Below, one piece after another: positions 59,359 to 59,493 of a stretch of DNA of 64,000 nucleotides. The notes beneath the pieces are model-generated. The model was given only the letters and a program-made list of their open reading frames with translations. It did not search any database and was not told the origin of the DNA. The DNA lies in assembly GCF_024502345.1 (NCBI RefSeq), contig NZ_JALDNN010000001.1; one strand, given 5' to 3'. Position 1 is the first letter of the stretch; each line of letters opens with the position of its first letter. A program made the translations under genes and the position numbers. The stretch comes from Escherichia coli (GTDB lineage Bacteria; Pseudomonadota; Gammaproteobacteria; Enterobacterales; Enterobacteriaceae).

Positions 59359-59493
59359 GAGTGCTATCTCCGAATAGGGAATCGAACCTGCAAATCAGGC
59401 AATAAAAAACCGCATTGATGCGGCGATGGTAGGTCTGGATATCATTGAGCAATGAACAGGCATCATCGAGTGTGAGGCGGTGTTATTTTATGG

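What the first reader, a model, noticed from the sequence alone, without database searches (positions are those of the whole stretch)
59359..59400. tRNA T-arm-like fragment directly upstream of torI
gggaatcgaacctgcaaatcagg resembles the reverse complement of a tRNA T-stem/loop and part of the argW sequence, 300 bp from the att core. It may be a second partial attachment-site remnant from successive integrations, or part of the torI promoter.
Basis: seen in the sequence. Interest (0 to 1): 0.25.

Follow-up and report, generated by a model that had tools for sequence, protein, structure and literature searches.

The report
Conserved tRNA T-arm copy before torI
A 16-base exact copy of part of the argW tRNA gene sits just upstream of the prophage excision gene torI; it belongs to the phage rather than being a local integration scar, and its 11-base core is conserved across very divergent phages that target argW, so it is probably an uncharacterised control site for making the excision protein.

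Summary
Window 59378-59393 (minus strand) reads TTGCAGGTTCGATTCC. This is a 16/16 match to argW nt 46-61, the T-stem 5' strand plus T-loop, which in argW directly abut the att core. It is not a tRNA gene and not a scar at this locus. The same sequence is in the virion genomes of HK620 and Sf6 and in K-12 KplE1, inside the known torI-attP-intS module.

New here: the core GTTCGATT[C/T]CC persists 29 nt upstream of the excisionase start codon in 75 of 95 distinct leaders. These include modules whose Xis is only 39-51% identical to TorI, whose Int arm sites differ, and whose Xis sites differ. Flanking bases are unalignable.

- The GenBank reading (pI promoter with a cII site) is poorly supported.
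- A canonical TorI site does not fit.
- An anti-Shine-Dalgarno hairpin is possible but does not explain the base order.

Best guess, at about 0.3: a sequence-specific operator on the torI leader, recognised by the integrase core-binding domain. The conserved 10 bp equal the attB "B" half-site and match the attP "C" half-site consensus at 9 of 10 positions. The function is untested. Interest is moderate.

The parts
59378..59393 (-). 16-nt exact copy of argW nt 46-61 (TTGCAGGTTCGATTCC: end of the variable loop, T-stem 5' strand, T-loop, first two bases of the T-stem 3' strand)
59377..59387 (-). Evolutionarily conserved core GTTCGATTCCC (consensus GTTCGATT[C/T]CC). Its first G lies 29 nt upstream of the torI ATG. 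Its first 10 bp equal the bases of argW directly left of the crossover segment, the attB 'B' half-site.
59368..59371 (-). torI Shine-Dalgarno GGAG, 5 nt downstream of the core
   Evidence: conserved as CGGAG
59158..59358 (-). torI, the 66-aa recombination directionality factor, 100% identical to HK620 HkaC and Sf6 gp18
59390..59402 (-). TTGCCTGATTTGC, annotated in HK620 as a cII-binding site of a putative pI promoter; overlaps the 5' end of the tRNA-like fragment
   Evidence: Spacing is N5, and the first TTGC is polymorphic.
59404..59424 (-). Intrinsic terminator (hairpin GCCGCATCAATGCGGT plus T-run) ending the upstream gene. The hairpin differs between phages, and the conserved module begins at the T-run.
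59143..59163 (-). Two IntS arm-type repeats GGGTAAAAT (59143-59151 and 59155-59163), 58 and 70 bp from the C half-site, overlapping the torI 3' end
   Evidence: arm-type sites as named in PMC2951348
59084..59093 (-). Deduced IntS core-type half-site C (AGTAGATGTC) on the phage side of the core
   Evidence: 30 distinct C sites, consensus A-T-T-n-G-R-T-G-T-H; inference from the inverted repeat GGTGTC/GACACC
59077..59083 (-). Deduced 7-bp crossover (overlap) segment TGCAGGG
   Evidence: Inference from the inverted-repeat anatomy
59070..59076 (-). Half-site C'/B' GACACCA, the 3' end of argW. Together 59070-59084 is the 15-nt att core identical to argW nt 61-75.

Best explanation
Shown:
- The fragment is a phage-borne, tRNA-like cis-element in the 5' leader of the RDF gene torI. 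It lies between an intrinsic terminator and the ribosome-binding site of the known torI-attP-intS (KplE1/HK620/Sf6) argW recombination module.
- Its 11-nt core is kept base for base, at a fixed 29-nt distance from the start codon, in module lineages that have otherwise diverged beyond alignment.

Inferred, my committed reading: it is a sequence-specific protein-binding operator that limits or times TorI synthesis, and the binder is the integrase core-binding/catalytic domain.
- The conserved 10 bp (GTTCGATTCC) are the same 10 bp that the integrase must recognise as the left ('B') half-site of attB in argW.
- The conserved block starts and stops where a 10-bp half-site would.
- Target specificity for argW is the one property that all motif-bearing modules share.

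Speculative: integrase held at the nearby arm sites P1/P2 could reach back to this half-site. That would hinder read-through transcription or translation of torI when integrase is present, and so favour integration over excision.
For: Phage-borne and part of the module: it is identical in HK620, Sf6 and K-12 KplE1. The homology block begins at the terminator T-run.

Conservation:
- 75 of 95 distinct leaders carry GTTCGAT, and 68 of those 75 have it exactly 29 nt from the ATG.
- Among 23 representatives under 90% identical, 10 of the 11 core positions are invariant or nearly so, while flanks carry 0.25-1.2 bits.
- It is present in g341c (Xis about 51% identical, arm sites GGGCATAA) and in phiEt88 (Xis 39% identical, Xis sites GT[AT]ACC).
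- GTTCGATT occurs only once in the whole HK620 genome.

Half-site argument:
- The attP core is an inverted repeat, GGTGTC-TGCAGGG-GACACC.
- 30 distinct C half-sites are conserved over exactly 10 bp (A-T-T-n-G-R-T-G-T-H).
- The motif equals the argW B half-site at 10/10 positions and matches allowed C residues at 9/10. PWM p is about 0.001-0.006 against random 12-mers.
- TTCGAT is also the distal part of the C site in 8 of the 30 distinct C sites.

The published work calls PtorI 'non-characterized' and names RDF expression as the open control point (PMC2951348).
Against: - There is no binding data.
- Excision in vitro works with a 135-bp attR that lacks the motif (PMC3509656 methods).
- It is a lone half-site with no crossover segment, about 294 bp from the core.
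- Position -3 is T in every motif copy but G in all 30 C sites.
- The conserved C after the half-site is not in argW.
- The motif-to-core distance (291, 294, 300, 314, 315 bp) is not strictly in helical phase.
- Natural variants have cleanly lost the segment, so it is dispensable.
- The 11-mer is also the T-loop of glyT and thrU, so the identity to argW specifically rests on few bases.
- The lineages are not independent, because leaders may spread by recombination.
Confidence: 0.3

Rival explanations
1. RNA-level leader element: the pyrimidine-rich UUCGAUUCCC pairs with the Shine-Dalgarno region (UUCG/CGGA or AUUYCC/GGAGAU). This throttles TorI translation on read-through transcripts.
For: - The position is fixed 3-6 nt upstream of GGAG and 29 nt from the AUG.
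- Predicted SD pairing probability is 0.5-1.0 in all 19 representatives.
- 77.5% of cells pair, against 35-61% when the 3' partner is slid.
- It lies downstream of a terminator on the sense strand, so it is transcribed only on read-through.
Against: - There is no compensatory change; observed values equal the shuffles.
- Shuffling the 15-nt head gives the same SD occlusion in most lineages: 0.2-0.6 of shuffles reach the native value. The base order, which is what is conserved, is therefore not explained.
- The 3' strand varies while the 5' strand is invariant.
- Where the motif is duplicated, the SD-proximal copy is the mutated one (L089, L094).
Confidence: 0.17
2. TorI (Xis) operator: the GTTCG core is a TorI-binding site through which the RDF represses its own synthesis.
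For: - TorI sites on attL have cores GTTCG, GATCG or GTCCG, and TorI represses PintS (PMC2951348).
- The motif contains a perfect GTTCG on the same strand as the attL sites.
- The variant in L096 reads CAGTTCGA, 7/8 to the site consensus.
Against: - The base after GTTCG is A in every motif copy but C or T in about 30 real class I/II sites.
- It is a single site, whereas real sites come in arrays at 10- or 20-bp spacing.
- ATTYCC is equally conserved and is not part of TorI sites.
- The motif is unchanged in phiEt88, whose positionally equivalent Xis sites are GT[AT]ACC.
- Weakness of that last point: ATTYCC loosely resembles class III sites, and phiEt88 is the only fully independent class III leader.
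Confidence: 0.1
3. Promoter reading as in the GenBank records: a cII-activated pI promoter whose -35 region and cII half-sites overlap the fragment, making integrase mRNA during establishment of lysogeny.
For: - HK620 annotates 1664-1702 as 'promoter, phage integration' with a cII site at 1689-1701; Sf6 annotates 'pI; possible integrase expression promoter'.
- TTGCCTGATTTGC is present in the window.
- A start site near the ATG would skip the torI SD, as lambda pI skips xis (my inference).
Against: - No sigma-70-like site is found in 59000-59900.
- The spacing is N5, whereas HK620's own pRE has TTGC-N6-TTGC, and the N5 pattern occurs 6 times in HK620.
- The first TTGC is TTAC in K-12 and in many E. 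coli-type copies.
- The half-sites are absent in divergent modules, and the conserved bases fall in the would-be spacer.
- The module travels between phages with different immunity regions.
- intS has its own mapped promoter (PMC2951348).
Confidence: 0.08
4. Non-functional relic: a piece of argW captured once (for example from an attL-type junction or a tandem array). It is kept by hitch-hiking and spread by mosaic recombination of the leader.
For: - The E. coli type keeps 16 nt of argW, and other lineages keep nCAG-GTTCGATTCC or CAGGTTCGATTCCTG (L092). Together these suggest an ancestral stretch covering at least argW nt 46-63.
- Hybrid or tandem argW junctions exist (L186, L189, L190).
- Clean natural deletions are tolerated.
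- Class II and III leaders are near-identical, which suggests exchange.
Against: - The core is invariant while the bases on both sides vary within the same leaders.
- It is retained in independently diverged leaders (E. coli type, Erwinia type, phiEt88, L092, L094, L096).
- In E. coli-type copies SNPs are common just outside the core and rare inside it.
- The adjoining crossover and C' part has decayed completely, so neutral decay would have erased the core too.
Confidence: 0.12

Closest known systems
KplE1 / HK620 / Sf6 argW recombination module (torI-attP-intS; Panis, Ansaldi and co-workers)
   Same: The window holds its attR half: the 15-nt core identical to the argW 3' end, two GGGTAAAAT arm-type repeats, and torI 100% identical. 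The leader is 97% identical over the 355 aligned bases (window 59070-59424).
   Different: The published site maps I could read (PMC2951348, PMC3509656) cover attL and a 135-bp attR. They do not include or mention the T-arm-like element. PtorI is called non-characterized.
Putative pI promoter / cII-binding site annotated in HK620 (AF335538) and Sf6 (AF547987)
   Same: Same bases: HK620 1664-1702 corresponds to window 59364-59402.
   Different: That annotation is a sequence prediction. The conserved block found here is not the predicted hexamers or the TTGC half-sites, and it persists where those are absent.
Core-type integrase half-sites of heterobivalent tyrosine recombinases (lambda C, C', B, B')
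   Same: It is 10 bp long and identical to the B half-site of the module's own attB. It resembles the C half-site consensus at 9/10 positions.
   Different: It is not next to a crossover segment, has no inverted partner, and lies about 294 bp from the core. An isolated core-type half-site with a regulatory role is not something I know to have been described (own knowledge).
tRNA-gene fragments at prophage ends (displaced 3' tRNA segments; Reiter 1989, Williams 2002, from own knowledge)
   Same: A short, exact piece of the target tRNA in tRNA orientation near an att site.
   Different: Those fragments are the 3' part duplicated by integration and lie at the junction. This one is the part 5' of the crossover, which integration does not duplicate. 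It is carried inside the phage genome.
TorI binding sites I1-I5 on attL
   Same: It shares the pentamer GTTCG and the strand.
   Different: Its flanks differ (A instead of C/T after the core), it is single rather than arrayed, and it does not change when Xis site specificity changes.

Membership tests
tRNA gene or tRNA pseudogene | Cloverleaf detectable by ARAGORN or the Rfam tRNA model | tested here: not met
   ARAGORN finds 6 tRNAs, none near 59.4 kb. Rfam at E<=10 gives no tRNA hit in 58900-59600. Only 16 nt are tRNA-like, and the T-stem 3' strand is missing.
Second att site / att-core remnant | Contains the crossover segment TGCAGGG and the C'/B' half-site GACACC(A) | tested here: not met
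   The motif is followed by CTATTCGGAGATAG. Similarity to TGCAGGGGACACCA beyond the half-site is about chance (6/18 in the common leader, my count on sequences).
Second att site / att-core remnant | Chromosomal scar specific to this locus, absent from the free phage | tested here: not met
   It is present in the HK620 and Sf6 virion genomes and in about 150 viral contigs.
KplE1-type argW recombination module (attR side) | Core identical to the argW 3' end; torI adjacent and transcribed toward the core; IntS arm-type repeats between them | tested here: met
   core at 59070-59084, arm repeats at 58 and 70 bp from C, torI 100% identical.
TorI (RDF) binding site | 8-bp site [CT][AG]G[TA][TC]CG[CT] | tested here: inconclusive
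   The core GTTCG is met. The last position is A in all motif copies and C/T in about 30 real sites.
TorI (RDF) binding site | Arrays of 2-3 sites at 10- or 20-bp spacing; sequence follows the Xis specificity class | tested here: not met
   It is a single copy. The duplicates in Erwinia phages have a period of 16 and in L094 a period of 13. The motif is unchanged in phiEt88, whose Xis sites are GT[AT]ACC.
TorI (RDF) binding site | Bound by TorI in vitro | not testable with these tools
   Needs a gel shift or footprint.
cII-dependent promoter (lambda pI/pRE type) | TTGC-N6-TTGC straddling a weak -35, with a usable -10 | tested here: not met
   The spacing is N5. HK620 pRE has N6. No promoter-like site is found. 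The half-sites are polymorphic and not conserved.
Integrase core-type half-site | Sequence matches the half-sites flanking the crossover segment | tested here: met
   It matches the argW B half-site at 10/10 positions and allowed C-site residues at 9/10. PWM p is 0.001-0.006.
Integrase core-type half-site | Adjacent to a crossover segment with an inverted partner half-site | tested here: not met
   There is no TGCAGGG and no conserved inverted partner. The spacing to GAGATA varies between 5 and 8 nt among lineages.
Integrase core-type half-site | Bound by the integrase C-terminal domains | not testable with these tools
   Needs IntS binding assays.
SD-sequestering leader hairpin | Base pairing supported by covariation or by dependence on sequence order | tested here: not met
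   Pairing is possible, but there is no covariation and shuffled heads pair equally well.

The most novel reading that the evidence does not exclude
Phages that target argW carry, on the leader of their excisionase gene, a decoy copy of the bacterial half (B half-site) of their own attachment site. Through it the integrase reads or controls RDF synthesis. This would be a direct integrase-to-RDF regulatory link that sets recombination direction in modules where int and xis are transcribed separately. It would also be the first regulatory use of an isolated core-type half-site.
Probability: 0.25. Interest if true: 0.65.

Novelty: new variant of a known kind. Interest (0 to 1): 0.42.

Why it matters
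In the KplE1/HK620/Sf6 family the decision to excise is thought to rest on RDF (TorI) expression alone, and the authors of the reference work call the torI promoter uncharacterised (PMC2951348). Within the sequence examined here (about 1.5-2 kb on each side of xis), I found no other conserved element upstream of the RDF start codon: a sharply bounded 11-base element, kept 29 nt upstream of the start codon through divergence that has erased everything around it. It gives a precise, testable handle on that open question: scramble 11 bases, then measure TorI level, excision and lysogenisation. If the binder is the integrase, it would show a new way for a recombinase to use knowledge of its target site for regulation. 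If the element is only a leader or translation element, it is an ordinary regulatory detail of a well-known module.

Tried and rejected
- tRNA gene or pseudogene: rejected.
- Local scar of successive integrations: rejected, because the sequence is in free phage genomes.
- My first idea, that torI was inserted into a once-contiguous 31-nt tRNA block: weakened. The phage side of the core already carries its own T-loop-like half-site (TTCGATGTA in Erwinia-type attP), so the leader motif is a second copy.
- TorI operator: pursued, then down-weighted (base +1 is A versus C/T; phiEt88 specificity switch).
- Anti-SD hairpin: pursued. Pairing is real but not order-dependent and shows no covariation.
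- RNA T-loop mimic (TruB/TrmA-type recognition): rejected. The T-stem is not conserved, the tRNA-invariant C61 position is the variable one, and the tRNA-variable positions 59/60 are invariant here.
- Complementarity to rRNA: at most 7 nt (16S 1337), which is chance level.
- N-terminal extension of Xis through the motif, as annotated for g341c gene 19: rejected, because an in-frame stop with no start codon follows it in the E. coli type (my reading).
- Helical phasing between motif and core: not strict. The apparent compensation between phiEt88 and g341c was only a shifted stop codon.
- Relatives targeting other tRNAs: Pseudomonas AlpA-type phages lack any such motif. YeP5 and VW-6S have a different gene order. 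More distant Xis relatives (L197-L201) lack the motif. No informative case was found.
- Menouni et al. 2013 (Rho control of torI) and Thomason et al. 2015 (TSS maps) are not held.

Full report
**Observation**

The region read by the first stage is as described. On the minus strand, which is the sense strand of both torI and argW, the order is:
- an intrinsic terminator: hairpin 59424-59409, then a T-run;
- ATTGCCTGAT;
- TTGCAGGTTCGATTCC (59393-59378), then C;
- TATTC;
- the Shine-Dalgarno GGAG (59371-59368);
- the torI ATG at 59358.

I took K-12 argW from the BW25113 chromosome. It reads ...GGGCTAATTGCAGGTTCGATTCCTGCAGGGGACACCA. The 16-mer equals argW nt 46-61 exactly. It is the only perfect hit in the window. 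The att core at 59070-59084 equals argW nt 61-75. The two pieces therefore abut in the tRNA, but here they are 294 bp apart with torI between them.

ARAGORN and Rfam find no tRNA here. Chance is excluded for the 16-mer. By arithmetic, about 1e-7 matches are expected at this strand and distance.

**It belongs to the phage**

The window's 59070-59413 block is the known torI side of the KplE1/HK620/Sf6 argW recombination module. The same leader, including the 16-mer, is present in the HK620 and Sf6 virion genomes, in K-12 KplE1, and in 3,679 of 20,395 E. coli records that match the region. Here the module's attR abuts the csc sucrose genes rather than dsdC.

In about 80 E. coli-type viral contigs, homology begins at the terminator T-run. 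Two different hairpins lie upstream of it, which marks a mosaic boundary. SNPs are common just outside the core and rare within it. TTGCC->TTACC occurs in 13 of the 56 distinct leader sequences listed. CCC->CCA occurs in several. GTTCGATT is hit once. This rules out a scar of successive integrations at this locus.

**Deep conservation**

I used TorI and alignments of its relatives to pull loci from viral contigs and phage records. The core GTTCGATT[C/T]CC turned up upstream of the excisionase gene in modules that are otherwise unalignable in non-coding DNA:
- Erwinia phage Midgardsormr38 and relatives have two tandem copies with a 16-bp period.
- L094 has two copies with a 13-bp period.
- L092 reads CCAGGTTCGATTCCTG, a 15-nt identity to argW that extends 3'.
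- Salmonella g341c and Emek carry it. Their Xis is about 51% identical to TorI and their Int arm repeats are GGGCATAA.
- Erwinia phiEt88 carries it. Its Xis is 39% identical.

Of 95 distinct 60-nt leaders, 75 carry GTTCGAT. In 68 of those 75 the first G is exactly 29 nt from the ATG. Among 23 representatives under 90% identical, G-T-T-C-G-A-T-T-.-C are invariant and the next C nearly so. Positions on either side carry 0.25-1.2 bits. Anchoring on the 7-mer inflates seven of these columns. Only two leaders that keep the region have a mutated 7-mer (L023, L133).

Eighteen leaders lack the segment. Several look like clean deletions between the terminator and the SD: L163/165/166, L186/188 and L190. 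The element is therefore dispensable but strongly constrained where present. GTTCGATT occurs once in the whole HK620 genome.

**What it is not**

*Promoter.* HK620 and Sf6 GenBank records annotate these bases as a putative pI promoter with a cII site. Against this:
- The scan finds no sigma-70-like site.
- The TTGC repeats are spaced N5. HK620's own pRE has N6, and the N5 pattern occurs six times in that genome.
- The first TTGC is polymorphic.
- Divergent modules lack the repeats but keep the core.

Panis et al. call PtorI non-characterized (PMC2951348).

*TorI operator.* TorI sites have cores GTTCG, GATCG or GTCCG (PMC2951348), and the motif contains GTTCG. Against this:
- The next base is A in every motif copy and C or T in about 30 genuine sites.
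- The site is single.
- The equally conserved ATTYCC is not part of TorI sites.
- phiEt88, L165 and L166 have Xis sites GT[AT]ACC at positionally equivalent places, yet the motif is unchanged in phiEt88 and in class III leaders such as L170.

This argument is good but not decisive. phiEt88 is the only fully independent class III leader, and ATTYCC loosely resembles class III sites.

*Anti-SD hairpin.* ViennaRNA pairs the motif with the SD in all representatives. 77.5% of cells pair, against 35-61% for slid partners. There is no covariation. Shuffling the 15-nt head preserves SD occlusion. Composition, not the conserved order, would suffice for this role.

*RNA T-loop mimic.* The T-stem is not conserved, and the pattern of variable and invariant positions is the reverse of that in tRNAs.

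*rRNA complementarity.* At most 7 nt.

**Anatomy of the att core and the favoured reading**

In g341c the core reads GGTGTC-TGCAGGG-GACACC. This is a perfect inverted repeat around a 7-bp segment. I take these as the C half-site, the crossover segment and the C' half-site.

Thirty distinct C half-sites from the collected loci are conserved over exactly 10 bp, with consensus A-T-T-n-G-R-T-G-T-H. The two arm repeats sit 58 and 70 bp away in every lineage.

In attB, the 10 bp left of TGCAGGG are GTTCGATTCC, the T-loop and the start of the T-stem 3' strand. That is precisely the conserved core of the leader motif. The core's 5' edge (G) and 3' edge (CC) coincide with the edges of a 10-bp half-site. 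The motif matches residues allowed in C sites at 9 of 10 positions, with PWM p 0.001-0.006. TTCGAT is also the distal part of C in 8 of the 30 distinct C sites.

Everything else that could recognise DNA has changed across the motif-bearing modules: Xis class, Int arm-site class, phage backbone and immunity type. The one constant is the argW target, and hence the integrase core-binding specificity.

I therefore favour the view that the element is a B-type core half-site bound by integrase and used to control torI. This is inference, at roughly 0.3 probability.

Points against it:
- It is not needed for excision in vitro with a 135-bp attR (PMC3509656).
- It is a lone half-site far from the core.
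- Position -3 is invariantly T, against G in all C sites.
- There is no strict helical phasing.
- The 11-mer is also the glyT and thrU T-loop.

**Origin**

The E. coli type keeps argW nt 46-61. Many other lineages keep nCAG before the core. L092 keeps CCTG after it. Together these suggest an ancestral stretch of at least argW nt 46-63, that is, a captured piece of the tRNA 5' of the crossover. Normal integration never duplicates that part.

Hybrid junctions occur in L186, L189 and L190, where the P arm of one class meets the P' arm of another. They show that tandem occupancy of argW happens and could have provided the opportunity. How the piece came to lie upstream of xis is unknown.

**Verdict**

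The element is a real, conserved, uncharacterised cis-site of a well-known module. In the papers I could read (PMC2951348, PMC3509656, PMC8787464) it is not mentioned. That library is limited, and the key site-mapping papers (JBC 2007, Virology 2010, PNAS 2013) are not held.

Interest is moderate. The result does not overturn anything, but it offers a sharp experimental handle on how RDF synthesis, and hence prophage excision, is controlled.

Noticed in passing
window 14200-14320: A second copy of the lysV (tRNA-Lys) 3' end with its terminator tail: ttttttacattggtgggtcgtgcagga at 14200-14227, against 14358-14385. It is followed by a perfect palindrome built from T-arm sequence, tcgaacctgc|tgcaggttcga, at about 14293-14313. 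It looks like an old att-type duplication at tRNA-Lys.
   Followed up: no
L005 (Midgardsormr38), L089-L091, L094: The leader motif is tandemly duplicated in Erwinia-type modules (period 16) and in L094 (period 13). In L089 and L094 the copy nearer the SD is the mutated one and the distal copy is perfect.
   Followed up: partly
L110 (phiEt88) 2500-2620; L165/L166 after the core: The excisionase binding repeats on the P' arm have switched from GTTCG[CT] to [AG]T[TAC]ACC at positionally equivalent places. This goes with a change of the Xis recognition region from GKTFIYDRIK to TxKYFYxQIK. It looks like a natural specificity switch within one module family.
   Followed up: partly
L186, L190, L189 (viral contigs): Hybrid att junctions: the P arm and Xis of one class are followed, after the core, by the P' arm of another class. 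This points to tandem or successive elements at argW.
   Followed up: partly
L163, L165, L166, L186, L188, L190: Clean natural deletions remove the roughly 25-29-nt motif segment but keep the terminator and the SD (tttttgcc|cggagg; ttttttatt|ggag; acgcct|ggagat).
   Followed up: partly
window 59430-59480 (minus strand): A block with the hairpin CCTCACACTCGATGA(T/G)G, upstream of the terminator, is shared with HK022, HK97, Stx phages and g341c-type leaders. In HK97 the matching stretch is annotated as a terminator.
   Followed up: no
window 59034-59165 (minus strand): A 43-aa ORF runs across the att core. It corresponds to the hkaB / Sf6 gene 17 ORF, which spans attP in the free phage and is therefore cut by integration.
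   Followed up: no
window 56396-58629 and L202: The csc sucrose genes (cscA, the kinase, the permease) abut the prophage attR here, where K-12 has dsdC. This is the variable argW-dsdCXA island context.
   Followed up: partly
window 61419-62132 (minus strand): A 237-aa ORF that I recognise from memory as resembling the lambda cI repressor (not checked with any tool), so the prophage carrying this torI module would be lambdoid, unlike the P22-like HK620 and Sf6. If so, this illustrates how the module moves between phage backbones.
   Followed up: no
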